Shown here piece after piece: positions 1,529-47,003 of a stretch of 64,000 bases of DNA (position 1 is its first letter; each line of letters starts with the position of its first letter). Below the pieces are notes generated by a model that worked only from the letters and a program-made list of their open reading frames with translations, was not told where the DNA came from and did not search any database. This DNA comes from Candidatus Zixiibacteriota bacterium. GTDB lineage: Bacteria; Zixibacteria; MSB-5A5; GN15; FEB-12. Position numbers and translations under genes: made by a program. The DNA lies in NCBI GenBank assembly GCA_036826635.1, contig DAISVY010000006.1, positions 14,554 to 78,553 of the forward strand, written 5' to 3'.

Positions 1529-2725
1529 TCAGATACGCTCGAAAGCCTGTTCCAGGTCGGCTTTCAAATCATCTATCTCTTCTATTCCCGCCGAAAGTCG
1601 AATCAAATCGTTGGTGATGCCCGAAGCTTCCCGGGCTTTCTCCGATACGCCCGAGTGAGTCATCGAAGCCGGGTGCTGCACCAGTGATTCCACCCCGCCC
1701 AGCGATACGGCCAGCGTGATCAACTGCAGATTATTCAGCAACACGGTGGCTTTGTCGTAACCGCCCTTGACGCCAAACGTGAGCATGCATCCCGGACCGC
1801 GCATCTGGTTACCTTCGACCACCAATTTATACTGGGGATGATCTTCGAAACCCGGATACCGCACCCAGGCCACTTTGGGATGGTTTCGCAGGTACTCGGC
1901 CAGGGCTATAGCGTTCTGCTGCATCCGTTCCATTCTCAGCCCGAGGGTTTTGACACCGGTATTGAACAAATCGGCACAATCCGGCGAGAGCACACCGCCC
2001 CGGTTCACCACGCTGTTGCGAAGCCGATAGAAGTCCTTCTCGGCCGCCGCCACCAGCATACCGCCGATGGCGTTGGCGTGTCCGCCTATCGACTTGGTCA
2101 TCGAATGCAAAACGACGTCCGCCCCCAGATCGAGCGGGTTCTGCAAATACGGCGAGCAAAATGTATTGTCAACCACTAAGGGAATCTCGGCCCCCTGTGC
2201 GATTTCGGCCAGTTGGGCGATATCACTGATCGCCAGGGTCGGATTGGCCGGCGTTTCGACATAGAGAAGTCTGGTCTGCGGAATCTGGACGGCTTCAAGG
2301 ACTCGTTCCAAGTCTGACGTATCAAGGAATGTCGCCCGCACGCCCCATTTGGCGAAGAAATCCGCTTTCTCAAGTATGCTCCGCGACGGACCGTAAATAG
2401 AACCCGTCGCCACAATATGGCTGGTGGCGTCAAGGTAAGTGAAATACACCGCCTCTACCGCCGCCATTCCGGACGCGGTCGCGATACCACCGTAGCCGTG
2501 TTCCAGCGCCGCGATCTTTTTTTCCAGCGCATCCACACCCGGGCTGAACAACCGTGCATAGATACCCTCTTTCATGGAACTGGTAAAACGAGCCGCCCCG
2601 TCCTCGCAACTCTCAAAAGCGTAAGTTGAAGATCGCTCCAGGGGAGGATTCACCGGACCGCGCCGCGCATGATACCCGGCATGAACGGCCAGGGAATTGA
2701 ATCCGAGTTTCTTATTGTCACTCAT
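1529..2725 (-). CDS. PLP-dependent Cys/Met-metabolism enzyme, methionine gamma-lyase-like
   Basis: 398 aa. It carries the trans-sulfuration family signature HSMTKSIGGH (PLP lysine), an N-terminal AVHAG...RSSTYAF...GAARF...GIYARL pattern and an ASGMAAV motif. Its length fits MGL/CGS better than OAH sulfhydrylase. Confidence 0.8.
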   Translation of the reverse strand: MSDNKKLGFNSLAVHAGYHARRGPVNPPLERSSTYAFESCEDGAARFTSSMKEGIYARLFSPGVDALEKKIAALEHGYGGIATASGMAAVEAVYFTYLDATSHIVATGSIYGPSRSILEKADFFAKWGVRATFLDTSDLERVLEAVQIPQTRLLYVETPANPTLAISDIAQLAEIAQGAEIPLVVDNTFCSPYLQNPLDLGADVVLHSMTKSIGGHANAIGGMLVAAAEKDFYRLRNSVVNRGGVLSPDCADLFNTGVKTLGLRMERMQQNAIALAEYLRNHPKVAWVRYPGFEDHPQYKLVVEGNQMRGPGCMLTFGVKGGYDKATVLLNNLQLITLAVSLGGVESLVQHPASMTHSGVSEKAREASGITNDLIRLSAGIEEIDDLKADLEQAFERI

Positions 2726-2818: not shown

Positions 2819-3565
2819 TTAGCTTAATCCGATCCCGAGAGCCTCAAGCAACTGAGTCATAGCCGTGGTGGCTTTGTCCTGAAGGAACACATCCGTTATC
2901 TGATAAGTGTAATTTGATTCCAGCGTGTTCATTTCGATAATGGCCGCCCCGTTTTGTTTGGCTACCCGGGGAATCATGGAAGCCGGAACAACTTCTCCGG
3001 TCGTCCCGATAACCAGAAAGACATCGGCCGTCTCCGCTTCGTGCAGCGACCGAAGGTAAGCATCATGCGGTATGGGTTCACCGAAGAATACAAAATCAGG
3101 TTTAAGCAAACCGCCGCAGTTGCCGCAATGGGGCGGAAGCGCTCCCAGATCGATATTGGCTACGGGATAGCGTTCACCGCATTTCAGACAGATAAGATAT
3201 TGCGAATTGCCGTGGAACTCGTACACCTCGCGGCTTCCGGCCACCTGGTGAAGGTTGTCGATATTCTGTGTTATAACGGCCTGTAGCAACCCCTCCCGCT
3301 CCATGGCGGCCAGTCCCTTGTGGGCGGCGTTCGGCCTGGCCTGACCGAAGAAATCGTAGAAGATTTCCTTGATAACCACCCAGGCGTCTTCCGGGTTGGC
3401 TCGGAAATAGGATATATCCAGACAGCCGGGATCATACTTGCTCCACAGACCGTCCTCGCCCCGAAACGGCGGAATACCGCTTTCCACCGATATCCCGGCC
3501 CCCGTAAACGCGGTCACCCGCCGGGCGTTTCGGATCAACTCTGCGGCTTTTTCGTAAACAGACAT
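2819..3565 (-). CDS. cobB: Sir2-family NAD-dependent protein deacylase
   Basis: 248 aa with the motifs GAGISVESGIPPFRG, QNIDNLH, a Zn ribbon CLKC...CGNCGG, and the catalytic H in EFHGN. Confidence 0.9.
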   Translation of the reverse strand: MSVYEKAAELIRNARRVTAFTGAGISVESGIPPFRGEDGLWSKYDPGCLDISYFRANPEDAWVVIKEIFYDFFGQARPNAAHKGLAAMEREGLLQAVITQNIDNLHQVAGSREVYEFHGNSQYLICLKCGERYPVANIDLGALPPHCGNCGGLLKPDFVFFGEPIPHDAYLRSLHEAETADVFLVIGTTGEVVPASMIPRVAKQNGAAIIEMNTLESNYTYQITDVFLQDKATTAMTQLLEALGIGLS

Positions 3566-3570
3566 TTTCT

Positions 3571-5775
3571 TTACTTCTCTACCACGACCGCTACATCACG
3601 ACGTGGTTCTACTTCTCCGATAACAGCAGCTTCACCAACACCATGCTGCTGCAAAGCGACCGCAAGGGCCTGCGCCTTATCGGCCGGCACGGAAATGAGC
3701 AGCCCGCCCGACGTTTGAGCGTCATTCAGCAGGAACTGTCTTGTTTCCGACAGCGTGGCGTCGTATTGCACCTGCGCCCTGGTGAAGGAATGATTGTCGG
3801 CGGTGCCGCCGGGAATAAGACCCGACACGGCCAGATCGACCACATCGGGCAGGAACGGAACGTTATCGGCCCGGACAATGGCACTGCATTTCGACCCGTT
3901 CATCATTTCCGTAAGGTGCCCCAGTAATCCGAACCCCGTAACGTCGGTACAGGCGTTAACCCCGACCGTCTGCATTGCCTCGGCGGCCGCTTTGTTCAAG
4001 GTTGCCATGGTACGGGTCAAGATATCAGCCTGAGAAGCGTCCAGCAATCCACGCTTGAGAGCCGTAGACAGAATGCCGGTCCCCAGTGGCTTGGTCAGTA
4101 TCAGAACATCGCCCGGCCTGGCACCCCGGTTGGTTACGATCCGTTCGGGATCAATTATGCCGGTTACGGCCAGACCGAATTTCGGCTCGGTATCGTCCAC
4201 CGTGTGACCACCGATAATAGCAATCCCGGCCTCGCGAGCTTTGTCCAGCGCGCCCTTAAGTATCTCTTCAAGCACCCTCATCGGCAACCGATTGCTGGGG
4301 AACCCCACGATATTCAGAGCAAACAACGCCCTGGCCCCCATGGCGTAAATGTCACTCAGCGAATTGGTGGCGGCAATAGCCCCGAACTGGTACGGATCAT
4401 CGACTATGGGGGTAAAGAAATCCACCGTCTGCACGATTGCCGTGTGATCATCCAGACGATAAACGGCGGCATCATCGGACGTATCAGTGCCTACCAGAAT
4501 AGCGGGATCATCGGGCACCGGCAATTGCTGAAGCACCTTTTCCAGAAGCTGCGGACGCAGTTTGCAGGCACAACCCAATCCATGGGTATATCGGGTCAGC
4601 TTGATCTCGTCACCGTCGCTCGCTACCGGTGCCGGTGCCCCCTCCGGCGACAGGCTCCCGACTACGCGAGCTGTTTCTTCGATGGCCCGGTCGATCTCAT
4701 CGACTGTCGTGAAACGGCCGGTCGAAAAACGTATTGTCCCCATCGCCCATTCCAGCGGTATTTTCATCGCCTGCAGCACACTGGATATCTCGACACTCTC
4801 GCTGTGGCAGGCCGCCCCGGCCGATGCCGCCACCTGGTCAAGTTCCGAAAGAATGGTGTCGGCTTCCAGCCCCCGGAAACTGACACTGAGGGTATTGGAC
4901 AATCTTTTCTGCGGATGACCATTGACGCGAAGATCAGAAATATGCTCCTGCAAACCGTTTTCGAGACGATCCCGCATGGCCTTCAGGTGAGCGGCGTGTT
5001 TATCCAGATCCTGCCCGGCCAGTTCGCAGGCTTTGCCCAGAGCGACTATTTCAATTACGTTCTCGGTACCGGCTCGCCAGTTCCTTTCATGATCGGCGCC
5101 ATGGACCTGTTTTTCCAAATGCACGCCGGAGCGAATATACAGAGCGCCAATACCCTTGGGCGCATACAGCTTATGTCCGGCCACCGAAAGCAGATCGACT
5201 TTCAGATCATCCACCTTCACCGGGATTTTGCCGAGCGACTGGGCGCAATCGGTGTGCATCAGAATACCGCACCGACGGGCCATTTCGGCTATCTCGGCAA
5301 TCGGTTCGATAGTCCCCACTTCGTTGTTGGCGTGCATGATCGTAATCAGGATCGTCTGCGGCGTAACGGCTTCTTCCACCCGGGCCGGATCTACCAGTCC
5401 GTATTGATCGACCGGAAGATAGGTCACCCGCACGCCCCGAGTTTCAAGGTACTTGCAGACCTCGATAACGGCCGGATGTTCCACGGCGGAAGTTATGATA
5501 TGATTGCCCTTGTCCCGGTATGCCCGGGCCACGCCTTTAATCGCGTAGTTGTTGGATTCGGAACCGCCACTGGTGAAAACAATCTCTTCGCTGCTGCAAC
5601 CAAGCAGATCGGCTACCTGCCGACGGGCGATATCGACCGCTTTCCGGGCGGTGGCGCCGAAAGCATGGCTGCTGGAAGGATTGCCAAAATGCTCATTAAT
5701 AAACGGCAACATGGCCTGGCCGACCCGGGGATCAATGGGGGTAGTGGCGTTGTAGTCAAGATATATCGGTTTCAT
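3571..5775 (-). CDS. selD: Fusion protein: NifS-type cysteine desulfurase/selenocysteine lyase (N-terminal) plus selenophosphate synthetase SelD (C-terminal, Cys form)
   Basis: 734 aa. Residues 1 to about 385 are class V aminotransferase-like (LDYNATTP, PLP lysine in SVAGHKLYAPKG, active-site Cys in SAGAACHS). A short Pro/Ala linker follows, and then a complete SelD (LTRYTHGLGCACKL, DDAAVYRL, VQTVDFFTPIVDDPYQFGAIAATNSLSDIYAMGA, GGHTVDD). Confidence 0.9.
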   Translation of the reverse strand: MKPIYLDYNATTPIDPRVGQAMLPFINEHFGNPSSSHAFGATARKAVDIARRQVADLLGCSSEEIVFTSGGSESNNYAIKGVARAYRDKGNHIITSAVEHPAVIEVCKYLETRGVRVTYLPVDQYGLVDPARVEEAVTPQTILITIMHANNEVGTIEPIAEIAEMARRCGILMHTDCAQSLGKIPVKVDDLKVDLLSVAGHKLYAPKGIGALYIRSGVHLEKQVHGADHERNWRAGTENVIEIVALGKACELAGQDLDKHAAHLKAMRDRLENGLQEHISDLRVNGHPQKRLSNTLSVSFRGLEADTILSELDQVAASAGAACHSESVEISSVLQAMKIPLEWAMGTIRFSTGRFTTVDEIDRAIEETARVVGSLSPEGAPAPVASDGDEIKLTRYTHGLGCACKLRPQLLEKVLQQLPVPDDPAILVGTDTSDDAAVYRLDDHTAIVQTVDFFTPIVDDPYQFGAIAATNSLSDIYAMGARALFALNIVGFPSNRLPMRVLEEILKGALDKAREAGIAIIGGHTVDDTEPKFGLAVTGIIDPERIVTNRGARPGDVLILTKPLGTGILSTALKRGLLDASQADILTRTMATLNKAAAEAMQTVGVNACTDVTGFGLLGHLTEMMNGSKCSAIVRADNVPFLPDVVDLAVSGLIPGGTADNHSFTRAQVQYDATLSETRQFLLNDAQTSGGLLISVPADKAQALAVALQQHGVGEAAVIGEVEPRRDVAVVVEK

Positions 5776-5948
5776 TATATACAGCTCCCGCCGTGGGCGG
5801 ATCAGAAACGGCAGTTTTCGTGAATCGTCCAGAGCCTATTTATCGACTTCCCGACGCAAAATCAAGTCCCTAATGCACTCCGAACACCAACAAATCGGGG
5901 TTTCCCTTGCGAGAAACCCCTGAAATGACAAAGTATCGTCGGTTTGGT

Positions 5949-25615: not shown

Positions 25616-26308
25616 ATGGAACGCTGTCTTATCACCGGAGCCACCAGAGGTATGGGGCGCGCCATCGCTCTTCGGCTGGCCGGGCCGGACAAAGAACTGC
25701 TCCTGCACGGACGTAATCGGGAAGCGTTAGAGCAGGTCCGTGCCGAGGTAGAAAACGCCGGGGCCAAAGCCCGTGTATTGCTGTGCGATTTGAGCAATCC
25801 CGCCGAAATCGAAACGATGATTGACGCTATCGGTACCGAGCCGTTGCGGGCGATAATCAACAACGCCGGTATCGCCATTGTCAAACCGCTGGGTGAATTG
25901 TCGCTGCGGGAATGGCAGGATTCGTTCGCGGTGAATGTCACGGCCCCGTTCCTCTTGATTCAGAAGCTCAGTGCCCTGATGGAAAAAGGCGCCGGTGTGG
26001 TTAATATCCTCTCGGTGGCGGCTCGTACCGGTTTCCCCGGCTGGAGCAGCTATTGTATGAGTAAGTTCGCTCTGGAAGGTTTCACGCGGGCGGTGCGCGA
26101 GGAATTGCGCCCCCGGGGTATTCGTGTTATCAATATCTACCCATCGGCCACCAATACCGATCTGTGGAATGAAATCGAAGGTGACTGGCCGCGCGATAAG
26201 ATGCTCTCGCCCGATGAAGTCGCCGAAGCTGTCGTCTATGCTCTCACTCGTCCCGACTCGGTGCTGGTAGAGGACATCTCCCTCGGCAATCTCTCCGGCA
26301 CGCTGTAG
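25616..26308 (+). CDS. Short-chain dehydrogenase/reductase (possible sepiapterin/pterin reductase role by context)
   Basis: It has the TGATRGMGRAIA Rossmann motif, NNAG, and the catalytic YCMSK (YxxxK). I chose the start at 25616 (MERCLITG), which follows an AGGAA RBS directly after the PTPS stop. Confidence 0.85.
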   Translation: MERCLITGATRGMGRAIALRLAGPDKELLLHGRNREALEQVRAEVENAGAKARVLLCDLSNPAEIETMIDAIGTEPLRAIINNAGIAIVKPLGELSLREWQDSFAVNVTAPFLLIQKLSALMEKGAGVVNILSVAARTGFPGWSSYCMSKFALEGFTRAVREELRPRGIRVINIYPSATNTDLWNEIEGDWPRDKMLSPDEVAEAVVYALTRPDSVLVEDISLGNLSGTL

Positions 26309-26338
26309 GCCGGCCCTGCCGGGTTATCTTGTCCCCTT

Positions 26339-26992
26339 CTATATTTCTTCTTCGAGCGAGGTACCAAGATCCTTCTGGATCCATGCACTATTAGCGTATT
26401 CCAAAATCACATGGTAATTAGTGGATTTGATAATTCCTCGGCCTATCTGAAAAAGTGTCACAATGACTCTGATCCTATCACCACTGTTCTCATCATCCCA
26501 CACGGTCTCTAAATATGTGTCTTTCGAAAGCGGGGCTCCGAAATCGGTTGGCGTTACTTGGTTGCGAGTAGGTTCTCCATATTTCTTCTTGAGAACATCT
26601 GTTAACTTTTGATAATACGACCACATCTTGTTGATAGTCTCAGACTCGTCACCAGTAATTATGCGAAAATGGTATTGAAAAACTGAAAGCGCACCATCTT
26701 CATCGAAAACAGCAAGGATTTCATCTGCTTCTTCGCCCAATAGTTTGACTTTTTCAATCTCGGCATAACGATAGCCTTCAGGAAGTTCGTGAACCGGGTA
26801 GAACGTGTGCGTCTTGTGATCCTTGCTCAGTTTCTTGATCTTGGCTTTTTCTCCCTTAGACGGGTTTTCTAACTTGTTTCTTACTTCATCATACGTCATT
26901 CCCCAACTTAGCCCTTTTGGAGGATTGAATGCCAGAGTGTTTGAAGCTAGCAGCATGCATGCTAATGTCAGAAATATTCGTTTCATAAGCAC
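26339..26992 (-). CDS. Hypothetical secreted protein (AT-richer islet)
   Basis: 217 aa with an N-terminal signal peptide (MLMKRIFLTLACMLLASNTLA). I recognised no family. The codon usage is visibly AT-richer than in neighbouring genes. Confidence 0.55.
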   Translation of the reverse strand: MLMKRIFLTLACMLLASNTLAFNPPKGLSWGMTYDEVRNKLENPSKGEKAKIKKLSKDHKTHTFYPVHELPEGYRYAEIEKVKLLGEEADEILAVFDEDGALSVFQYHFRIITGDESETINKMWSYYQKLTDVLKKKYGEPTRNQVTPTDFGAPLSKDTYLETVWDDENSGDRIRVIVTLFQIGRGIIKSTNYHVILEYANSAWIQKDLGTSLEEEI

Positions 26993-27270
26993 TCCCGGAA
27001 AAAGCTCTGTTTATTATTATTGATTGAATCAAAGTTAACAACAATGGATATACATGTCAAGTATTACGCTTACGATATGGAGCAATCACACGGCAGAGTC
27101 CCTTGATGATCCTTCTCTCCGTCAACGCTAATATAGCGGTTTTAGCTTGATTTTTTCTGAAACTGGGCTTAAGATGAGAAATAGACCAACAAAGGTAAGA
27201 TCATTTTTTAACAAAAGACATCATTTCGTTGACAGTCAACCTGGACACCAGTGGATGAAAGGAGCACGCC

Positions 27271-27909
27271 ATGAAAAACATTGACAATAGAGGCTTGTAT
27301 CGAAAAGCTGCCTGCTGGGAAGTGCTTTGCATACTCAGTCTGGTAGTTGGCTTTCTTCCAATGAGTTCGTTTGCTCAGGTTGGTGGGAGCGAACCTCTCA
27401 TCAAGTATGCTCAAAGGCAGGCGGGGAGAACTTTTGACGAAAAGTGGTCTTGGTCTTTTGGCGATGCGTTGATGTTACTCAAAGAGAATAACGGAATTAA
27501 AACCGGGGCGATTCTTCCGATCAGGATCAGCACATGGAGTTTCCCCATTACATTAGTGCGGCTCAACTCGGACGATTCTCAGAACGTCCGTATTGAGCCA
27601 ATTCTGTCTGTGGGACTTGGATATGTTTGGATCAGTGGATTGAGCACCATAGACGCGAAAAATGAAAGCATAATAATCTATCCCAGTAGCACTATAGGAA
27701 TTGCAGCCAGTTTAGGAGTCATTAACAAAGTTGATGGCTCCGCAGGAACTGAAGGAAGTCTAACTCTAACCGGTGTCATTGGACTCCGCTCAATGTTAAT
27801 TTCTTTTGGTTACGATTTCTTGTCCGAATCCCCGGTAGTTGGAATGGGCTTCTGTGTTAATCTCTTTACGCTGTCAAAAAACGCCTACCGAATCTCTGGA
27901 ATCGATTGA
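27271..27909 (+). CDS. Hypothetical exported/possibly beta-barrel protein (AT-richer islet)
   Basis: 212 aa. It has a hydrophobic signal-like segment ending SSFAQ and alternating beta-strand-like segments. I recognised no family. Confidence 0.5.
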   Translation: MKNIDNRGLYRKAACWEVLCILSLVVGFLPMSSFAQVGGSEPLIKYAQRQAGRTFDEKWSWSFGDALMLLKENNGIKTGAILPIRISTWSFPITLVRLNSDDSQNVRIEPILSVGLGYVWISGLSTIDAKNESIIIYPSSTIGIAASLGVINKVDGSAGTEGSLTLTGVIGLRSMLISFGYDFLSESPVVGMGFCVNLFTLSKNAYRISGID

Positions 27910-27989
27910 CTCTTAGCTAAGCTTCCCTGTCAAGCAAGCTTAGAACAGAACCCCTCGGCGGTTTTGCTCTACGTCAACTCTGTTGGTAA

Positions 27990-28649
27990 TCATTTCTTCG
28001 TGTTGTACGTTACACCCCAACTCTTCTCACCTGGTCGCTCAATGTATTTGACATTATCCGCGATGTCCCTGAGGACATTCTTGACTTCCTCTTCTGTGGG
28101 GAAGTTCTTCACGATCTCAAATGAGCGACCGTCCGGCAAAGAGCGTTGCTCTAAAGTATTGCCGTCAGGATCTTGCCTCCTGGCCTGCCCTTCATAAGGC
28201 AGTTGATCGACAAACAGCACAAGAGCTCCGGGCGCGAGCCTGCTGTGCAACACGGAGAGAAACGGCCGAATCTGCGCTTTTGGTATGTGAGACCACCACC
28301 AGATCCCCAGGGCAGCGCTGAACCCCGTTCGAACCCCGTCGAGGGTGTATGCGTCGGTTGTCTCGAATTGGACGTTGGACAGATGCTTGCACCTGTCCTT
28401 TGCAATCGAGACGAGCGATGAGTTAATGTCCGTTGCGAGCACTGAGTTTGCTACTTCGCCGATGACTTGTGTCCAGTACCCTGACCCGCAAGCAATCTCA
28501 AGCACATCATGTCCACTGAACATCTCTCGGTACCGTGCCTTGATAGGGACACGAAGCTGTTCTGCCTCCGGATCGGTGTAGCCTGCCGTCTCGTCGTAAA
28601 CAAGGGCTCGGGCTGCATAGTATTCGGTTATATTGTTAACCAATGACAT
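27990..28649 (-). CDS. Class I SAM-dependent methyltransferase
   Basis: 219 aa with the motif I sequence [12 protein letters not shown] and an acidic residue after beta-2 (LATDIN). The substrate is unknown. Confidence 0.8.
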
Positions 28650-31893: not shown

Positions 31894-34800
31894 TTGAAAG
31901 TTCAGAGATACTTTACCCGCGAAGGCGAGTCTCCCTATGCCCGGCTAAATTTTGCCCGGCGATCTTCAGAGATAAAGAACCCCGACGGCTCGGTAGTTTT
32001 CAGACTTGATAATATAGAGGTTCCTGAAGCCTGGTCGCAGGTAGCGGTAGATATTCTGGCTCAGAAGTATTTCCGCAAAGCGGGCGTGCCGCAGGTTGAT
32101 GCCCAGGGCAACCCGGCGAGAGACGACGAAGGCAAGCCGAAACTCGGCGGTGAAACGGATGCCCGCCAGGTTTTCCATCGTTTGTCCGACTGCTGGCGTC
32201 ACTGGGGTGAGAAATACGGCTATTTTGACAGCCGCGAAGACGCCAAGAACTTCTACGACGAGTTGGCCTACATGCTGGCCGCGCAGATCGCCGCCCCCAA
32301 CTCCCCTCAGTGGTTCAACACCGGTCTGTATAATTCCTACGGCATTTCCGGCGTCCCGCAGGGTCATTATTTCGTCGACCCTTCGACTCACACCCTCACC
32401 GAAGCCAAAAACGCCTATGAACACCCGCAGCCGCATGCCTGCTTTATCCAGTCGGTCAGCGATGATCTGGTCAACGAGGGCGGAATTATGGACCTGTGGG
32501 TACGCGAGGCCCGGCTGTTCAAGTACGGCTCGGGTACCGGCAGCAACTTCTCCGCCGTGCGCGGCGCCGGTGAGTCACTCTCGGGTGGGGGAAAATCGTC
32601 GGGACTGATGTCTTTCCTGCGGATCGGCGACCGTGCCGCCGGGGCTATCAAGTCGGGCGGGACAACCCGTCGGGCGGCCAAAATGGTCACCCTGAATCTG
32701 GATCATCCGGATATTATCGAATTCATCGACTGGAAAGTCATCGAGGAACAAAAAGTCGCCGCACTGGTCGCCGGCTCCAGGGTCATCCGCCAGCAACTTC
32801 GGGACATTTGCGAAGCCGTCGTGGTGTCGACCGAAGGTGACCGGAAAACCGTCGAGGTCGATCCCCGCAAAAACAAAAAGCTCGAACAGACAATAAGAAC
32901 CGCGCGACGGAACGCCGTCCCCGATACATATATCCGCAAAGTGCTGGAACTCGCCGGTCAGGGCGTTACCGATATCGACTTTATCGAACTGAATACGAAC
33001 TGGGACAGCGAAGCTTACCTTACGGTGGCCGGACAGAACTCCAACAACTCGGTGCGTATCCCCAACCTCTTTTTCGAAAAATTGAAAGCCGGTGAAGACT
33101 GGCCGTTGCACTATCGCAGCGCGAACGAAACACCCGACCCCATTCCGGCCGCTCAATTGTGGGACAAAATCTGTTATGCCGCCTGGGCCTGCGCCGATCC
33201 CGGGGTACAGTTCGACAGCACCATTAACGAATGGCATACCTGCCCCGAAGACGGGCGGATCAATGCCTCGAATCCCTGCTCGGAATACATGTTTCTCGAC
33301 GACACGGCCTGCAATCTGGCTTCGCTGAACCTGAGCAAGTTCTTCGGCGAAAACAGCGATTTCGACATCGAAGGTTACCGCCACGCTGTCCGCCTGTGGA
33401 CGATAGTCCTGGAGATTTCCGTCCTCATGGCGTCGTTCCCGTCGCGTCAGATTGCCCAGAAAAGCTACGAGTTTCGGACTCTCGGCCTGGGGTTCGCCAA
33501 TATCGGTTCCGTCCTGATGCAATTGGGCATTCCTTATGATTCCCCTCGCGGCTATGCCTGGTGTGGAGCGCTGGCGGCCCTTCTGACCGGGCAGGCCTAT
33601 ATGACCTCGGCCGAAATGGCCAAAGAGCAGGGACCTTTTCCCGGCTACTATCGCAACCGCGATCACATGCTGCGGGTGATGCGCAACCATCGCCGGGCCG
33701 CTCACAATGCGGACAGGTCGGAATACGAAGGACTCACGGTCAAGCCGACCGGAATCAACCCCAACTATCTGCCCGAGGAACTGGTGCAAACGGTCCGTTC
33801 GGTCTGGGATGAAGCGCTGTCTCTGGGCGAGGTATACGGATTCCGCAACGCTCAGACGACGGTGGTGGCCCCTACCGGGACAATCGGTTTGCTGATGGAT
33901 TGCGACACGACAGGAATCGAACCCGACTTCGCCCTGGTGAAATTCAAAAAGCTGGCCGGCGGCGGCTACTTTAAGATCATCAACAATTCGGTACCGTTGG
34001 CCCTGACTCACCTGGGTTACTCGGACGATGAAGTTGCTGACATCATCAAATACGCCACCGGGCACAAGACTCTCAAGGAATGCCCGTACGTCAATCATGA
34101 ATCGCTGCGAGCCAAGGGATTCGGCGACGAAGAGTTGCAAAAGATCGAGGCCTCGCTGAACGAGGTATTCGACATCTCCTTCGCTTTCAACAAACACATT
34201 CTGGGTGACGAATTCATTCATGATACGCTGGGGTTCACGGCCGAAGCAGTCGATGCCTGGGATTTCAACCTGTTGAAAGAACTGGGCTTTACCCGCGGGC
34301 AGATCGAGGCGGCCAACGAATACTGCTGCGGTACGATGACTCTCGAGGACGCCCCCCATATCAAGGATCATCACCTTCCCATTTTCGACTGCGCCAATCG
34401 GTGCGGCCGCAAGGGCAAGCGATTCATCAGCTACGAGGCACATATCCGCATGATGGCTGCGGCTCAGCCGTTCATTTCCGGCGCCATTTCAAAAACCATC
34501 AATATGCCGTCGGAAGCAACCATCGACGACGTCAAGCGAGCTTACATGCTGGCCTGGGAATCGATGAACAAAGCGGTGGCGTTGTATCGCGACGGGTCCA
34601 AACTCTCGCAGCCGTTGACGGCTTCCCTGCTGGGCGAAGATGACGAAGAAGAACCGCAGGAGATGACGGTCGAAGCCGCCGCCCGCAAGATGAGCGAGAA
34701 GCTCATCTATCGCTACATTGCCAAGCGCCGCAAACTGCCGCATCGCCGGGCCGGTTACACCCAGAAGGCTATGGTGGCCGGACACAAACTTTATATTCGC

Positions 34801-35568
34801 ACCGGAGAATACGGCGACGGCACGCTGGGAGAAATTTTCCTCGACATGCACCGCGAAGGCGCGGCTTTCCGCTCACTGATGAACAGTTTTGCGATTGCCG
34901 TCTCGCTGGGTTTGCAGCACGGTGTTCCTTTGGAGGAATTCGTCGAGGCTTTCCTTTTCAGCCGGTTCGAACCCAGCGGTATTGTTTCCGGAAACAAGAA
35001 AATAAAAATGGCCACTTCCATAATCGATTACATTTTCCGCGAACTGGCCATTACCTACCTGGGGCGCACCGACCTGGCCCATGTATCGGAGGAAGACCTG
35101 CGGCATGATGCCATGGGTTCGCCGAAGGAACAACCGGTCGAGTATGAAGAAGAAGAAACGGCCACGGCTCGTATCACGGGACAATTGACCAAAGCCAGCC
35201 GGGATCACAACGATCTCTATAGCCCCCACCTGAGGTTTACCATCAAAGGACGAGACAACGGTGGCAACGGGAACGGTAACGGGAACGGGAATGGCAACGG
35301 ACAGCACGGAGGAAACGGCAATGGTAAGCAGATGGAGACTGCGACTGCAGAAGAATCTAAAGAGCAGGAGACGGTGCTTGAGTACGTCTCGACCAGCAAC
35401 CCGGATGAATCCCAAGAGGGGGAATACCGCCTCCGCCGGGAAATCAGAAACGCGCGACTAAGGGGATATGAAGGAGACATGTGCCCCGAATGCGGTCAGT
35501 TTACTATGGTTCGCAATGGAACCTGCCTAAAATGTACGACCTGCGGGGCCACCTCCGGCTGCTCCTGA
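31894..35568 (+). CDS. nrdJ: Adenosylcobalamin-dependent ribonucleotide reductase, class II
   Basis: 1224 aa. The protein begins at a TTG start following a CAGGAGG RBS. Its N-terminus reads FTREGESPY...[12 protein letters not shown]...[19 protein letters not shown]. It contains the catalytic NPCSEY motif and a C-terminal CPECG...CLKCTTCG zinc ribbon with a terminal Cys tail. Confidence 0.9.
35257..35325 (+). repeat. Imperfect hexanucleotide (AAC-GGN) tandem repeat encoding a (Gly-Asn)n tract inside nrdJ
   Basis: The nucleotides aacggtggcaacgggaacggtaacgggaacgggaatggcaacgga...ggaaacggcaatggt encode [23 protein letters not shown]. The tract lies between the catalytic body and the C-terminal zinc ribbon. 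Confidence 0.9.
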
Positions 35569-43165: not shown

Positions 43166-45256
43166 TCAGGTCGAAGTTTCCCGCTGGCATTCGTCCAGAA
43201 GACGACACCCTTCCATCAGGATAGACTCGTTGGAATACTCGTTGTTGGCCGGGGGAATATCTTCTTCCGCGACCGGTTCGATAACCCACTTACCGCTGTT
43301 CCAGGCCAGGGCGGCGTATACCCCCTCGGCCCCGAGCAGATCACCGGACTGAGCGAACACGATCTGACCCTTTTTCAGATACAGGATCAGTTCGTTGCCA
43401 TTTGAGGTAATGCTTATCTTGGCCGTTTTGCGGCTCGGTCCCAACGCCTGCAACAGATCAATGAGATTCATGTCTTCCAGAAGACCGGCCGTACCGGTAG
43501 CGCTGACCGACTCGCCCCTGGCATTGGTTTCGGCCCGGGAACGCAGTTTGCGCATTTTCATTACGAGCAAATCGAGACCGTTTTCAATCGGGATGATATC
43601 TTCTATCCCCCGTTCGAACATGGAAGCCAACTCGGCGGCCGCCCGCTGCGAAGTCAACAGAAAAGTGGGAACTTTCACGATCTCGACACCGCGCCGGGTC
43701 AATTCGTCGATCTGTGCGATAGCTCTGGAGGCACGAGACTGACCAGCCAGTATAATATAGTCCGGGCGGCTTCGCTGATATAGTTCCACCAGACGGTCGG
43801 TGTTGCTGAGGGCTATCGGCCGGAAACCTTCCTGCCGGAGACGTTTGACAATCGGATTAAGCTGCTCGAGATCTTCGCCCATAACCAGAGCCTGATTGTA
43901 CTTGTTGGCCGAGGGCTCGATCAGAATCTCGTCCTCGATCATTTCTATGAACGTCTCCACCACTTCCGGGAGGAACAGTTTGCCGGTCATGGAAATCAAA
44001 TTGCTGCGGACGGCCTCGAACTTGTCCAGTGATATCTGTTCTTCGAACGACATGTTCTCGCAGAATATATCAACGATGGTCAGGATGTTGCCACCCAGGG
44101 TTTCGATAGGCAACCGCTTGGTATATTTCTGTTGCAGGTTGATATAGGCCGAACGCAATATCTCCACCACCAAGGGCGAATAGTTCAGCGAGTCCAGAAG
44201 CTTCGCGGTCAGAGCGATGCGAGTGCGACAGTCGGAAGCTTCTTCGGCCTCCCCATAGTAGAACCGGGACATATTGTGCAGATAGGCGGCGTTGACAATA
44301 CTCAAACGATCCCTGTCCGGAATCCCCATCTGTCGGCACAGACGATCAACATAGTGACCGACCACCCCGGCATGGTTGTCTTTGAGATTCTCCCGGGAAG
44401 CCAGAAGAGAAGTAAAAACCTCAAGGCTCTTGATTACCTGATCGTTCAGAATCTCGCTTTGCCCTCCGCTGAGAAGCAGTTGGGCCGGTGATTCGTAGTA
44501 TCGCACACAGGTCCGCGGTGATACTTTGCGCAACCGATCGATCAGATCGATATAATCACCCTGAACCGTGTCGCGGATAAAAACCGTATGGAACCTTTGA
44601 TTCCCGATGATTTCAATGGCATCGTCGGCCGAGTTGGTGCAAACAAGCTTATAATTTTCGTTTTCCAGAGCTTCCCGCAACGGCCGGTCGGCGTCGGGCT
44701 CATCGCTTACCAGCAAAATCGACCCGCGCGACGGCAGGATATCGACGGCCCCGGTATCGTCAAGCGAGGGGATTCTCTGTTGAATCGCCGGTTCTTCGGG
44801 GTCGGCATTCCGCTGAACACCAACGTAATGTCGAGCGACCGCGGCCCGCAACGGCATCTCGGCCGCCACGTAGAGTTTCACTTTCTTCCCGGCCGCCATG
44901 AAGTTCAACTCATTGATGAGATTCTCGTCGTCGGGATTCTCGCAGGCTATCTTGAGCAGATTGTCATCGGGATCGTAATCGAACGGTATGACGGTTCTGG
45001 CGATAGCCAGATTGGACGGTATAAGCTGGGTTATTTCTCTGGGGATTTCCACATCGGAGAGCATGACCGACTCACACCCGAACTGTTTCGACAAAGCCGT
45101 GAGCAAACCGGCTTCATCGACAAAGCCCAGTCGCACCAGATGCGAGCCCAGTCGACCACCATGCTCTCGCTGATATTGCAGGGCTGTCTTGACTTGTTCC
45201 TCGGTAACCAGCCCGTCCCAGAGCAGGATTTCGTCTATTCTCAAAGTGGTACTCAC
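43166..45256 (-). CDS. Multidomain signalling protein: MshEN-type c-di-GMP-binding domain, two receiver-like domains, a degenerate HD-type domain and a C-terminal DUF4388
   Basis: 696 aa. It has two consecutive 24-residue MshEN motifs (RIDEILLWDGLVTEEQVKTALQYQ and RLGSHLVRLGFVDEAGLLTALSKQ) and a T2SSE_N-like fold. The HD-like segment has AAYLHN in place of LHD. The C-terminal sequence LIDLLQALGPSRKTAKISI...GAEGVYAALAW is typical of DUF4388. Confidence 0.75.
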   Translation of the reverse strand: MSTTLRIDEILLWDGLVTEEQVKTALQYQREHGGRLGSHLVRLGFVDEAGLLTALSKQFGCESVMLSDVEIPREITQLIPSNLAIARTVIPFDYDPDDNLLKIACENPDDENLINELNFMAAGKKVKLYVAAEMPLRAAVARHYVGVQRNADPEEPAIQQRIPSLDDTGAVDILPSRGSILLVSDEPDADRPLREALENENYKLVCTNSADDAIEIIGNQRFHTVFIRDTVQGDYIDLIDRLRKVSPRTCVRYYESPAQLLLSGGQSEILNDQVIKSLEVFTSLLASRENLKDNHAGVVGHYVDRLCRQMGIPDRDRLSIVNAAYLHNMSRFYYGEAEEASDCRTRIALTAKLLDSLNYSPLVVEILRSAYINLQQKYTKRLPIETLGGNILTIVDIFCENMSFEEQISLDKFEAVRSNLISMTGKLFLPEVVETFIEMIEDEILIEPSANKYNQALVMGEDLEQLNPIVKRLRQEGFRPIALSNTDRLVELYQRSRPDYIILAGQSRASRAIAQIDELTRRGVEIVKVPTFLLTSQRAAAELASMFERGIEDIIPIENGLDLLVMKMRKLRSRAETNARGESVSATGTAGLLEDMNLIDLLQALGPSRKTAKISITSNGNELILYLKKGQIVFAQSGDLLGAEGVYAALAWNSGKWVIEPVAEEDIPPANNEYSNESILMEGCRLLDECQRETST

Positions 45257-45478: not shown

Positions 45479-46537
45479 ATGACCGACAAAAAAGAGCTTT
45501 CATCAATCAGACTGACCGCCGAAGTCAGTTGCTCGGGGTGAGCTTCCAAACTGGGGTCAAAGTTTTTGGCCGAAGCACTGAAAAATCTCACGCAGTCCGA
45601 CCACCCGGATCTTCTGGTAGGCTTCAATAAAGCCGATGACGCCGGGGTCTTCCGCCTGACCGACGAGCTGGCCCTGGTACAGACGGTGGATTTTTTCCCG
45701 CCTATCGTCGATGATCCCTTCAGTTTCGGCCAGATTGCCGCCGCCAACGCCCTGTCGGACGTTTTTGCGATGGGGGGTCGGCCCCTGACGGCTCTCAATA
45801 TCGTCGGTTTTCCGCTGGCCGATATGCCCCCGCAGGTCTTTACCGAGATTCTCCGCGGCGGAAACGAGAAGATACAGGAAGCCGGGGCGGTGGTGGTCGG
45901 GGGACATTCCATCAAAGACAAAGAGCTAAAATACGGCGTCGCCGTATCGGGAATAGTTCACCCCTCACACATCATTACCAACGCCGGGGCGGTTGTCGGC
46001 GATTGCCTGTTTCTTACCAAACCGCTGGGTACCGGCATCATTACGACAGCGATCAAACGACAGGCGGTCGACCCGTCCCTGATCGACCTGGTAACACGGC
46101 AAATGGCCGCCCTGAACAAAACAGCCGCCGAGTTGATGCTGCAACACGACGTCCACGCGGCCACCGATATCACCGGATACGGCCTCCTCGGCCACGGTTA
46201 TGAAATGGCCGAGGCCTCGGGGGTAAGTATCCGCATCGCGGCCGGGGCAGTTCCGCTTCTACCGGAAGCAGCACGGCTGGCCGGCGAGGGAATGAACCCC
46301 GGCGGAGCCGGAGATAATCGCGATTACCTGACCGGTCACGTACGAGTCGACGAGAACGTCGATAAAAACATCGAACAGGTATTATATGACCCCCAGACCT
46401 CGGGAGGCCTCCTGATGGCTATTCCCCCCGAGCGGGCGGACCGGTTCGCGGAGGCTTTACGGCAACATGGCTTGATATCAGCCGCCATCGGTAAAGTCAT
46501 CGCACGCGACGAATATGAACTGATCGTGGAAGCCTGA
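45479..46537 (+). CDS. selD: Selenophosphate synthetase with predicted selenocysteine (TGA 45539-45541) in the active-site loop
   Basis: The frame of ORF 45566..46537 stays open upstream except for one TGA. From ATG 45479 it reads MTDKKELSSIRLTAEVSCSG-U-ASKLGSKFLAEALKNL. The TGA aligns with E. coli SelD Cys17, and the Lys three residues later with Lys20. An in-frame TAA at 45461 bounds the 5' end. Downstream are canonical SelD motifs (DDAGVFRL, VQTVDFFPPIVDDPFSFGQIAAANALSDVFAMGG, GGHSIKD). Confidence 0.8.
45542..45576 (+). promoter_or_regulatory. Candidate bacterial SECIS hairpin immediately 3' of the selD TGA
   Basis: GCTT (45542-45545) pairs with AAGC (45573-45576), and CCAAA (45546-45550) pairs with TTTGG (45565-45569). 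The G-rich apical region is CTGGGGTCAAAG. The hairpin starts 1 nt after the TGA. Confidence 0.5.
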
Positions 46538-46745: not shown

Positions 46746-47003
46746 ATGGATATCGACGTTATATATTCCAAAAAGGATCCTCGGCAGGCCAGAACCATGG
46801 ATTTCGTGAAAAGATGGGTTCGCGATTGCGGTGTACTGGCCAAGATCGTGGAAACCGAAAAGGATGTGAACTCACCTACCGTTATTATAAACGGTCATAC
46901 CCTCCGCGATCTTCGCAAGAGTCCTCGCGGCACCAAGCCAGCCATGTATCCCACGACGAAGGATATCGCCAAAGAGCTGGAACGCCACGTCTGGTGTCTG
47001 TAA
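46746..47003 (+). CDS. Small hypothetical protein with thioredoxin-fold-like pattern but no CxxC
   Basis: 85 aa preceded by a strong TAGGAGG RBS. Its beta-alpha-beta-like pattern (IDVIYS...FVKRWVRDCG...AKIVETE...PTVIINGHTL) resembles small Trx/Rdx-like proteins. Confidence 0.55.
   Translation: MDIDVIYSKKDPRQARTMDFVKRWVRDCGVLAKIVETEKDVNSPTVIINGHTLRDLRKSPRGTKPAMYPTTKDIAKELERHVWCL

What the first reader, a model, noticed from the sequence alone, without database searches (positions are those of the whole stretch)
3571..5775. NifS-type desulfurase/selenocysteine lyase fused in one polypeptide to a second, Cys-type SelD
A single 734-aa ORF joins a complete class-V PLP desulfurase (PLP Lys in SVAGHK, active-site Cys in SAGAACHS) to a complete SelD through a short Pro/Ala linker. 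The SelD active-site loop is GLGCACK, which is Cys rather than Sec. NifS-like enzymes are known to mobilise selenium from selenocysteine for SelD, so the fusion implies direct channelling of selenide into selenophosphate synthesis. I recall that such fusions have been noted in comparative surveys, so the architecture itself may not be new. The unusual point is that it coexists with a separate Sec-containing selD 40 kb away. This suggests division of labour, for example a Se-independent bootstrap enzyme alongside a more active Sec enzyme, or separate pathways for Sec, selenouridine and Se-cofactor.
Basis: partly seen in the sequence, partly recalled or inferred. Interest (0 to 1): 0.6.

Follow-up and report, generated by a model that had tools for sequence, protein, structure and literature searches.

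The report
Known desulfurase–SelD fusion plus Sec-SelD
One gene really does join a cysteine/selenocysteine-cleaving enzyme to the enzyme that makes selenophosphate, and a separate selenocysteine-containing copy of that enzyme lies 40 kb away. Both the fusion and this pairing were already described in 2015, so this is a new member of a known and widespread family.

Summary
ORF 3571-5775 (-) encodes 734 aa: an IscS/NifS-type class-V PLP desulfurase (res 1-376; K202, C323), a 16-aa Pro/Ala linker, and a complete Cys-type SelD (res 393-734; loop G399-LGCACK-405). A second selD at 45479-46537 (+) has an in-frame TGA at the Cys17 position.

It is not new. Mariotti et al. 2015 (Suppl. S2) describe a Cys-type NifS-SPS fusion plus a separate Sec-SPS in Caldithrix abyssi. 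They note that all NifS-SPS species carry another SPS, and they speculate that the fusion serves selenocysteine recycling.

- A protein labelled Caldithrix abyssi is 70% identical to the window's fusion.
- Full-length relatives occur in at least 590 GTDB species genomes across many phyla, with K202, C323, C402, C404 and K405 conserved in 82/82 loci read.
- One other contig (3.84 Mb) carries both gene types.
- In 8 Bacteroidota loci the fusion sits next to selU.

Best reading: a selenium-delivery enzyme tethered to SelD. Se moves from the mobile C323 loop to the mobile C402 loop and is then phosphorylated with ATP. This is inferred, not shown.

One small addition: the desulfurase half carries a fixed P101/A199/H324 triad where E. 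coli IscS has K/S/T and human Sec lyase has D/V/H.

The parts
3571..5775 (-). Whole fusion gene (734 codons plus stop): NifS/IscS-like desulfurase, linker, Cys-type SelD
   Evidence: ORF list. Pfam and NCBIfam domains. Full-length relatives at 53-76% identity in 80 genome loci.
4648..5775 (-). Desulfurase half, res 1-376 (class-V PLP enzyme, group I). PLP-Lys K202 is at codon 5170-5172, E99-H100-P101 includes 5473-5478, and catalytic C323 is at codon 4807-4809.
   Evidence: Aminotran_5 E 3.6e-80. The best PDB relative is E. coli IscS, 372 bits. The Cys loop aligns without gaps to IscS 301-379. Codons verified. K202, C323 and H324 are conserved in 82/82 loci.
4600..4647 (-). Linker, res 377-392 (PEGAPAPVASDGDEIK). 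Its sequence varies between relatives but its length is constrained.
   Evidence: One search shows the sequence varies. One search shows the aligned segment 375-391 is 17-19 residues long in 69 of 82 loci. AF2 pLDDT is below 50 over res 377-413.
3574..4599 (-). SelD half, res 393-734. The Gly-rich catalytic loop G399-K405 (GLGCACK) is at 4561-4581. D435, D452, N471, D475 and D611 correspond to E. coli D51, D68, N87, D91 and D227.
   Evidence: TIGR00476 403.9 bits against cut-off 125. Alignment to E. coli SelD 3U0O, 293 bits. Residue conservation is 80-82 of 82 loci. Codons verified.
5897..5920 (-). Terminator-like hairpin (10-bp stem) between the upstream Na+-decarboxylase beta-subunit gene and the fusion. 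It suggests the fusion starts its own transcription unit.
   Evidence: consensus scan only. Sequence, with GGGAG about 11 nt upstream of the ATG.
2819..3565 (-). Sir2/CobB-type NAD-dependent protein deacylase gene, starting 5 nt after the fusion's stop codon. It is probably co-transcribed; a functional link is not established.
   Evidence: NF001753 261.6 bits against cut-off 243. 5-nt gap. A Sir2 gene lies in the flanks of the fusion in only 4 of 82 loci.
45479..46537 (+). Separate, unfused selD encoding a selenoprotein (352 codons, Sec at codon 21, motif C-S-G-U)
   Evidence: tblastn 48.7% identity to the fused SelD domain. Translation. About 110 of the 120 closest homologs are 306-331-aa gene calls that start after the TGA. 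Synteny with L081.
45539..45541 (+). In-frame TGA (Sec codon) aligned with Cys17 of E. coli SelD
   Evidence: Conserved in L081 and L085, with the reading frame upstream also conserved.
45542..45576 (+). SECIS-like hairpin directly after the TGA: outer stem GCUUC/GAAGC, inner stem 45555-45571, apical loop GUU
   Evidence: MFE fold; the energy z-score alone is not significant. The inner hairpin is conserved in L081 and L085 with a U-to-C change that keeps the pair.

Best explanation
The gene encodes a bifunctional selenium-activating enzyme of the known NifS-SPS (NifS-SelD) fusion family.

Proposed mechanism:
1. The N-terminal group-I PLP desulfurase removes Se from free L-selenocysteine, and possibly S from cysteine. 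This yields alanine and a Cys323-S-Se(-) adduct on its long mobile loop.
2. The adduct is passed directly to Cys402 in the mobile Gly-rich loop of the SelD half. That loop begins only about 25 residues after the desulfurase fold ends, so it is in effect part of the tether.
3. The SelD half uses ATP to produce selenophosphate, the selenium donor for Sec-tRNA(Sec) and 2-selenouridine.
4. The separate Sec-type SelD is an old paralog that probably handles free selenide. The fusion would then be the selenocysteine-recycling or organic-Se route.

Shown: the architecture, intact catalytic residues in both halves, family-wide conservation, co-existence of the two selD types, and selU linkage in some lineages.

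Inferred: activity on selenocysteine, loop-to-loop Se transfer, and the division of labour.
For: - Both halves are complete and score as their families.
- K202, C323, C402, C404, K405 and the SelD Asp/Asn ligands are conserved in 80-82 of 82 loci drawn from many phyla. That indicates purifying selection on both activities.
- Linker length is constrained (17-19 residues in 69/82) while its sequence is free.
- The two lowest-confidence AF2 segments are the C323 loop (321-330) and the linker plus SelD loop (377-413). This matches two mobile loops that could meet.
- tRNA 2-selenouridine synthase (NF008750, 371 bits against cut-off 241) is directly adjacent on the same strand in 8 of 82 loci. This ties the fusion to selenophosphate use.
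- Published biochemistry: NifS-like proteins plus selenocysteine support SelD in vitro. T. brucei SCLY binds SEPHS2 through the SEPHS2 N-terminal region (PMC7595633). Human SCL has a dynamic Cys segment proposed to deliver Se to SPS (PMC3266270).
- The desulfurase half has P101/A199/H324 where E. coli IscS has K/S/T. It therefore lacks the Lys that gave human SCL its Cys activity when introduced (D146K), and it shares the His found in the Sec-specific SCLs of higher eukaryotes (PMC3266270).
- The same speculation was published for this family (Mariotti 2015 S2).
Against: - No experiment on any bacterial NifS-SelD fusion turned up in the library searched.
- The desulfurase half is more similar to IscS (372 bits) than to Sec lyases (human SCLY 241 bits; SclA model 129.6 against cut-off 525). 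Sequence alone therefore does not show selenium specificity.
- From memory, A. vinelandii NifS, a true cysteine desulfurase, also has Pro at the P101 position. I could not check this here.
- AF2 pTM is only 0.66 and no coordinates were available, so no fixed inter-domain interface is shown.
- No Se gene is a conserved neighbour in the window.
- Whether fusion-bearing genomes generally hold a second SelD could be checked for only two contigs.
Confidence: 0.6

Rival explanations
1. The N-terminal half works mainly as an ordinary cysteine desulfurase on sulfur. Its persulfide would either feed sulfur pathways (for example the 2-thiouridine that SelU later converts to 2-selenouridine) or capture inorganic Se as an S-Se adduct for SelD. 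Free selenocysteine would not be the physiological substrate.
For: - The closest solved relatives are IscS and NFS1 desulfurases, and the protein passes the 'IscS subfamily cysteine desulfurase' model NF002806 (318.9 against 304).
- The Cys loop has the same length as in IscS.
- selU adjacency in Bacteroidota would fit one enzyme serving both the S and the Se step of the tRNA modification.
- Reviews state that bacterial Sec lyases are generally Cys desulfurases of broad specificity (PMC13188914).
Against: - All three positions linked to Cys-versus-Sec preference differ from E. coli IscS, and they are fixed across the family: P 79/80, A 82/82, H 82/82.
- The IscS C-terminal tail is replaced by the linker; from memory, that tail helps bind the sulfur acceptor IscU.
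- The fusion partner is a bona fide SelD by equivalog score.
Confidence: 0.2
2. The Cys-type fusion exists chiefly as a selenium-independent 'starter'. It would make the first selenophosphate needed to translate the Sec-containing SelD after selenium starvation.
For: The fused SelD is Cys-type in 82/82 loci. The partner SelD in the window and on contig ctg97514c is Sec-type.
Against: - The supplementary table of Mariotti 2015 lists genomes whose SelD is the Sec form, for example H. influenzae and G. sulfurreducens. That these have no Cys-type copy is from my own knowledge.
- The idea does not explain why a desulfurase is attached.
- Geobacter FRC-32 has a Sec-type fusion plus a Sec-type free SelD.
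Confidence: 0.1
3. The fused SelD-like half has changed function, for example thiophosphate or another chalcogen-phosphate product as proposed for archaeal SelD-like proteins. The true SelD of the cell would then be only the Sec form.
For: [quoted passage not shown]
- SelD-like families with non-Se roles have been proposed (PMC4210487, listed; PMC9312934).
Against: - It scores far above the SelD equivalog cut-offs and far below 'fusion_not_SelD' TIGR04369 (154 against 700).
- All SelD catalytic residues are kept.
- It is adjacent to selU in 8 loci.
Confidence: 0.07
4. Artefact: two neighbouring genes joined by a sequencing or assembly error.
For: None found.
Against: The same continuous architecture occurs in 82 independent loci and in all 120 listed protein clusters, 117 of them 731-740 aa (range 719-762). 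N-termini and the linker position are conserved.
Confidence: 0.01

Closest known systems
NifS-SPS (NifS-SelD) fusion of Caldithrix abyssi, with its separate Sec-SPS (Mariotti et al. 2015, Genome Res., Suppl. Material S2)
   Same: - N-terminal NifS-like desulfurase and C-terminal SelD in one ORF.
- Cys at the Sec position.
- A second, unfused Sec-containing SelD in the same genome.
- A protein labelled Caldithrix abyssi (P0095, 736 aa) is 70% identical over 99% of the window's protein.
   Different: The host is different: the nearest database relatives are Zixibacteria MAG proteins at 74% identity. Nothing differs in architecture.
NifS-SelD fusion of Geobacter sp. FRC-32 (Zhang & Gladyshev 2008; Mariotti 2015)
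   Same: Same two-domain order. A second free SelD is also present in that genome.
   Different: The Geobacter fusion has Sec (CxxU) in the SelD loop. The window's fusion has Cys (GCACK), and the CxxU motif is instead on the window's free SelD.
Non-covalent Sec-lyase/SelD pairs: T. brucei SCLY-SEPHS2 complex, and E. coli NifS-like proteins (CsdB, CSD, IscS) supporting SelD in vitro
   Same: The same two activities. Se hand-off is proposed between the mobile Cys loop of the lyase and the mobile N-terminal loop of SelD, and binding depends on the SelD N-terminus (PMC7595633; PMC3266270).
   Different: There the partners are separate proteins. Here they are covalently tethered by about 16 residues. 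The eukaryotic lyase has D/V/H at the three specificity-linked positions, while the fusion has P/A/H.
E. coli IscS (group-I cysteine desulfurase; PDB 1P3W)
   Same: The best solved relative of the N-half (372 bits). It has the same PLP-Lys motif, the same length of Cys loop, and C328 aligns with C323.
   Different: The fusion lacks the last ~25 residues of IscS and has P101/A199/H324 where IscS has K/S/T. It falls below the IscS and NifS equivalog cut-offs.
Ndh-SelD (NADH-dehydrogenase-like/SelD) fusions
   Same: An N-terminal extension on a Cys-type SelD, thought to supply or reduce selenium for SelD.
   Different: A different partner domain and a different loop motif (CxxC). The model TIGR04369 is not matched at cut-off (154 against 700).

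Membership tests
SelD / selenophosphate synthetase (selenide, water dikinase) | AIRS N- and C-domains scoring above curated equivalog cut-offs | tested here: met
   TIGR00476 403.9 against 125; NF002098 396.1 against 299; Pfam AIRS and AIRS_C.
SelD / selenophosphate synthetase (selenide, water dikinase) | N-terminal Gly-rich loop with Cys/Sec17 and Lys20 (E. coli numbering) | tested here: met
   G399-L-G-C402-A-C404-K405 aligns with G-A-G-C17-G-C19-K20 of 3U0O. Conserved in 82/82 loci.
SelD / selenophosphate synthetase (selenide, water dikinase) | ATP/metal ligands Asp51, Asp68, Asn87, Asp91, Asp227 | tested here: met
   D435, D452, N471, D475 and D611 are present and conserved in 80-82 of 82 loci.
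SelD / selenophosphate synthetase (selenide, water dikinase) | Makes selenophosphate from reduced Se + ATP | not testable with these tools
   Needs an enzyme assay or complementation of a selD mutant.
Group-I (IscS/NifS-type) class-V PLP cysteine desulfurase / Sec lyase | Class-V fold with PLP-Lys in an xGHK motif and a His-containing EH motif | tested here: met
   Aminotran_5 E 3.6e-80. A199-G-H-K202 and E99-H100 align with IscS SGHK and EHK.
Group-I (IscS/NifS-type) class-V PLP cysteine desulfurase / Sec lyase | Catalytic Cys on the long group-I loop (consensus SSGSACTS) | tested here: met
   SAGAAC323HS aligns without gaps with IscS SSGSAC328TS. The variant motif AACH is fixed in the family.
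NifS proper (TIGR03402) or IscS proper (TIGR02006 / NF010611) | Score at or above the curated equivalog cut-off | tested here: not met
   NifS 495.5 against 530.75; IscS 433.3 against 643.2 and 435.6 against 548. Only the broader subfamily model NF002806 passes, at 318.9 against 304.
Dedicated selenocysteine lyase (bacterial SclA NF040779; eukaryotic SCLY) | Family-level sequence membership | tested here: not met
   SclA 129.6 against 525. Human and rat SCL score 241 and 238 bits, against 372 for IscS.
Dedicated selenocysteine lyase (bacterial SclA NF040779; eukaryotic SCLY) | Specificity-linked residues of human SCL: Asp146, Val256, His389 (Collins 2012) | tested here: inconclusive
   The fusion has P101, A199 and H324. 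The His matches, the IscS Ser is replaced by the non-hydroxyl Ala, and the group-I Lys is absent, but the Asp is absent too; one relative, L032, has Asp.
NifS-SPS fusion family (Mariotti 2015; Zhang & Gladyshev 2008) | NifS-like domain N-terminal to SelD in one reading frame | tested here: met
   The same architecture is seen in 82 loci and 120 protein clusters.
NifS-SPS fusion family (Mariotti 2015; Zhang & Gladyshev 2008) | Close sequence relationship to a described member | tested here: met
   70% identity over 99% of the length to P0095, labelled Caldithrix abyssi. The SelD domain falls in a core clade of 9 fusion sequences with 99/100 bootstrap; P0095 was among the tree's inputs but its place in that clade was not checked.
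NifS-SPS fusion family (Mariotti 2015; Zhang & Gladyshev 2008) | Another, unfused SPS/SelD in the same genome (an empirical regularity noted in 2015) | tested here: met
   Sec-selD at 45479-46537. The same pairing is on contig ERZ21831104:ctg97514c.

The most novel reading that the evidence does not exclude
The desulfurase half of this fusion family may be a bacterial group-I enzyme specialised for selenocysteine, marked by the fixed P101/A199/H324 triad where IscS has K/S/T.

The family occurs in at least 590 species, far more than the two prokaryotic cases known in 2015. On this reading it would be a dedicated, widespread selenocysteine-salvage route running in parallel to a selenide route served by the free Sec-SelD. 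It would give a natural 'Rosetta-stone' answer to the open question of which protein delivers selenium to SelD in vivo.
Probability: 0.3. Interest if true: 0.55.

Novelty: new member of a known kind. Interest (0 to 1): 0.25.

Why it matters
For this window, little changes. It adds one more genome to a pairing already published: a Cys-type NifS-SelD fusion plus a free Sec-SelD.

At family level it matters somewhat more. Recent reviews still say that the in vivo selenium donor for SelD is unresolved and that a specific bacterial Sec lyase is 'ambiguous' (PMC13188914).

A covalent desulfurase-SelD fusion with intact active sites on both sides, present in hundreds of species, is the simplest experimental system for testing direct Se hand-off and Se/S discrimination. 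No biochemical study of it turned up in the library searched.

Tried and rejected
1. Exact look-ups of the window's fusion and of its Sec-SelD fragment to name the organism found nothing usable.
2. A conserved operon around the fusion was not found. Sir2 lies in the flanks in only 4/82 loci, the decarboxylase operon in 1/82 and the methionine-gamma-lyase-like gene in 1/82. I therefore dropped any functional link to those neighbours.
3. No second SelD lies within +-10 kb of the fusion in any of the 80 genome loci.
4. Monophyly of all fused SelD domains is unresolved. An NJ tree puts 24 of 26 fusions together, but bootstrap support is absent (0/100 exact, 41/100 relaxed). Only the core clade of 9 is solid at 99/100.
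5. SECIS significance from folding energy alone gave z = 0.36, not significant. I relied instead on conservation of the TGA, the frame and the hairpin in three loci.
6. The AF2 model was meant to show a fixed inter-domain interface. With pTM 0.66 and no coordinates returned, it gives only loop-mobility information.
7. Similarity of the Cys-loop region to Sec lyase: IscS ranks first and SCLY well below it.
9. A selenoneine (SenC-type) role was considered. No SenA- or SenB-like gene appeared among the recurrent neighbours, but this was not tested with dedicated models.
Full report
**Observation**

The window has a single uninterrupted ORF at 3571..5775 on the minus strand (734 aa).
- Pfam places Aminotran_5 at residues 4-363 (E 3.6e-80), AIRS at 434-541 and AIRS_C at 553-732.
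- In NCBIfam the C-terminal half passes the SelD equivalog cut-offs: TIGR00476 scores 403.9 against 125, and NF002098 scores 396.1 against 299.
- The N-terminal half scores best as NifS (TIGR03402, 495.5) and IscS but falls below their equivalog cut-offs. It passes only the broader IscS-subfamily model NF002806, at 318.9 against 304.

**Catalytic residues**

Against E. coli SelD (PDB 3U0O, 293 bits), C402-A-C404-K405 aligns with Cys17-Gly-Cys19-Lys20. The ligands D51, D68, N87, D91 and D227 correspond to D435, D452, N471, D475 and D611.

Against E. coli IscS (1P3W, 372 bits), the Cys-loop region aligns without gaps, with IscS C328 matching C323. K202 sits in the same xGHK motif. The desulfurase fold ends at about residue 376, which corresponds to IscS residue ~380. 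The last ~25 residues of IscS are replaced by the linker and SelD.

**The second selD**

A tblastn search with the fused SelD domain finds one more copy at 45479..46537 (+), 48.7% identical.
- It has an in-frame TGA at 45539-45541 at the Cys17 position, reading ...EVSCSG-U-ASKLG, a CxxU motif.
- About 110 of its 120 closest database homologs are 306-331-aa gene calls that begin after this codon. That is what gene callers produce for Sec-SelD.
- In two orthologous loci (L081, L085) the TGA, the reading frame upstream of it and a hairpin directly downstream are conserved. The window's hairpin spans 45542-45576, with an inner stem GG[U/C]CAAA-GUU-UUUGGCC.
- The folding energy alone is not significant.
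- No tRNA, and so no tRNA-Sec, lies in the window. None of the roughly 45 window ORFs scanned is selA, selB, selU or yedE/F.

**The fusion is a large conserved family**

- The 120 best protein clusters are all fusions of 719-762 aa (117 of them 731-740) at 67-74% identity. Sources name them SelD or 'cysteine desulfurase NifS/selenium donor protein'. Hosts include Zixibacteria, Marinimicrobia, Latescibacteria and Caldithrix.
The best 80 loci are 53-76% identical and most match nearly the full length. They span Zixibacteria, Calditrichota, Ignavibacteria, Bacteroidota, Planctomycetota, Anaerolineae, Acidobacteriota, KSB1, Cloacimonadota and others.
- Across 82 loci, K202, C323, H324, C402, C404, K405 and four of the five SelD ligands are each conserved in 82/82, and D611 in all 80 loci where it could be read. 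None has a TGA at the C402 position.
- The linker varies freely in sequence but is 17-19 residues long in 69/82 loci.

This excludes a frameshift or assembly artefact and shows selection on both active sites.

**Relationship of the two SelDs**

An exhaustive search with the fused SelD domain returns other fusions first (65% and 57% identity). After them come many truncated, Sec-type free SelDs at 48-56%.

In an NJ tree of 157 SelD domains, the window's fused domain sits in a core clade of 9 fusion sequences (99/100 bootstrap). The free Sec-SelD lies in a separate group of Sec-type sequences. Monophyly of all fused domains is not resolved. The two genes are therefore old paralogs, not a recent duplication.

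**Genomic context**

- A strong terminator-like hairpin (5897-5920, minus strand) separates the fusion from an upstream methylmalonyl-CoA/oxaloacetate-type Na+-decarboxylase operon.
- A Sir2/CobB gene starts 5 nt after the fusion's stop codon, and a methionine-gamma-lyase-like gene follows.
- These neighbours are not conserved: Sir2 appears in 4/82 loci and the others in 1/82.
- Unbiased clustering of all flanking ORFs found one selenium gene. tRNA 2-selenouridine synthase MnmH/SelU (NF008750, 371 bits against cut-off 241) is directly adjacent on the same strand in 8 loci, at least 7 of them labelled Bacteroidota or Bacteroidales. Seven are upstream and one downstream, with gaps from -22 to 112 nt.
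- This is independent evidence that the fusion acts as a selenophosphate supplier.
- No second SelD lies within 10 kb of any of the 80 genome-scan fusions.
- On one 3.84-Mb contig (ERZ21831104:ctg97514c), a fusion (P0034) and a Sec-type SelD (P0238) lie about 450 kb apart. The Sec-selD neighbourhood there is syntenic with the window.

**Mechanism**

The best-supported reading is a tethered selenium relay.
1. The PLP domain cleaves selenocysteine.
2. The Se is held as a sulfoselenide on C323, on the long mobile group-I loop.
3. It is passed to C402 on the mobile Gly-rich loop of SelD.
4. SelD then phosphorylates it with ATP.

Published support comes from several sources. NifS-like proteins with selenocysteine can replace selenide for SelD in vitro. 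T. brucei SCLY binds SEPHS2, the binding needs the SEPHS2 N-terminal region, and it buries the lyase PLP site (PMC7595633). Human SCL has a dynamic Cys segment proposed to deliver Se directly to SPS (PMC3266270).

An AF2 model built on 34 homologs (pLDDT 72.8, pTM 0.66) folds both halves. Its lowest confidence falls exactly on residues 321-330 and 377-413, the two loops that would have to meet. No coordinates were available, so no fixed interface was shown.

**A family signature**

Collins et al. 2012 link three positions of human SCL to selenium specificity: D146, V256 and H389. Group-I desulfurases have Lys, Ser and Thr or Ala at those positions, and D146K alone confers cysteine activity. 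E. coli IscS has K, S and T at the aligned positions.

The fusion family has P101 (79/80 loci; one, L032, has Asp), A199 (82/82) and H324 (82/82).
- The His matches the Sec-specific lyases.
- The group-I Lys and Ser are absent.
- The Asp is absent too.
- By overall similarity the domain is closer to IscS than to SCLY or SclA.

From memory, A. vinelandii NifS also has Pro at the first position, so that residue is not diagnostic. The signature is suggestive of a selenocysteine preference but inconclusive.

**Comparison with what is known**

- Zhang & Gladyshev 2008 reported a NifS-SelD fusion in Geobacter sp. FRC-32, with a CxxU Sec motif.
- Mariotti et al. 2015 found two prokaryotic cases plus Naegleria and Acanthamoeba.
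- Their Supplement S2 describes Caldithrix abyssi as having a Cys-type NifS-SPS fusion and a separate Sec-SPS.
- It states that all species with the fusion also have another SPS.
- P0095, labelled Caldithrix abyssi, is 70% identical to the window's protein.

The bootstrap idea is weak. The supplementary table of that paper lists genomes whose SelD is the Sec form, such as H. influenzae and G. sulfurreducens. Geobacter FRC-32 carries a Sec-type fusion.

I found no biochemical study of a bacterial NifS-SelD fusion. Recent reviews still call the in vivo Se donor for SelD unresolved.

**Verdict**

This is a real feature, correctly read: a new member of a known kind. Interest is low for the window itself.

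At family level the modest additions are:
- the very wide distribution (at least 590 species, against two prokaryotic cases in 2015);
- the invariant GLGCACK loop;
- the length-constrained tether;
- the selU linkage in Bacteroidota;
- the P/A/H triad.

These make the family a good experimental system for selenium delivery to SelD.

Noticed in passing
window 46746-47003 (+); L081 6095-6352: An 85-aa ORF directly downstream of the Sec-selD has no Pfam or NCBIfam match. An ORF of the same length sits at the same place in L081/L082 but not in L085. It may be a small conserved partner of this Sec-selD lineage.
   Followed up: partly
window 43166-45256 (-); L081 2488-4593; L085 523-2652; L084 2497-4617: A ~700-aa MshEN/PatA_N (c-di-GMP-binding type) protein is encoded divergently from the Sec-selD in the window, L081 and L085. 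In L084 the same kind of gene sits upstream of and divergent from the NifS-SelD fusion, with a T2SSE gene between them. L084 also carries the Sir2 and decarboxylase genes that flank the window's fusion.
   Followed up: partly
L043, L048, L053, L059, L065, L067, L068, L069 (next to the fusion match): tRNA 2-selenouridine synthase (MnmH/SelU) lies directly next to the fusion on the same strand in 8 loci, at least 7 of them labelled Bacteroidota or Bacteroidales (gaps -22 to 112 nt). This suggests a selU/nifS-selD operon in that phylum.
   Followed up: yes
L032 (Deferribacteres MAG), residues aligned to window fusion 94-106: This is the only relative with Asp (EHD) instead of Pro (EHP) at the position of human Sec-lyase Asp146, the residue reported to confer selenium specificity.
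   Followed up: no
window 26001-28000: GC content drops to 0.454 against about 0.55 elsewhere. The two ORFs here (26339-26992 on the minus strand, 27271-27909 on the plus strand) have no family match. This may be a small acquired islet.
   Followed up: no
window 31894-35568 (+): A class II (B12-dependent) ribonucleotide reductase is unusually long at 1224 aa. The barrel domain matches in two stretches and there is a C-terminal TSCPD domain.
   Followed up: no
window 2819-3565 (-) and 1529-2725 (-): A Sir2/CobB deacylase gene starts 5 nt after the fusion's stop codon, and a methionine-gamma-lyase-like PLP enzyme follows. Sir2 lies in the flanks of the fusion in only 4 of 82 related loci, so a functional link is doubtful.
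   Followed up: yes
L027, L028, L076: Three full-length fusion loci come from MAGs labelled 'uncultured archaeon'. This is either mis-binning or transfer of the fusion into archaea.
   Followed up: no
window 3571-5775 vs protein collection: The window's fusion protein is absent from the 15-billion-protein collection (best hit 74%). Yet the post-TGA fragment of its Sec-SelD (P0121, 100% identical) is present on a 219,651-bp NCBI/Logan contig. The reason is unknown.
   Followed up: partly
P0247 (819 aa), P0250 (919 aa), P0372 (814 aa): Longer NifS-SelD fusions carry extra N-terminal sequence; P0250 has a Ser/Thr-rich start. They may be the protist versions described in 2015.
   Followed up: no
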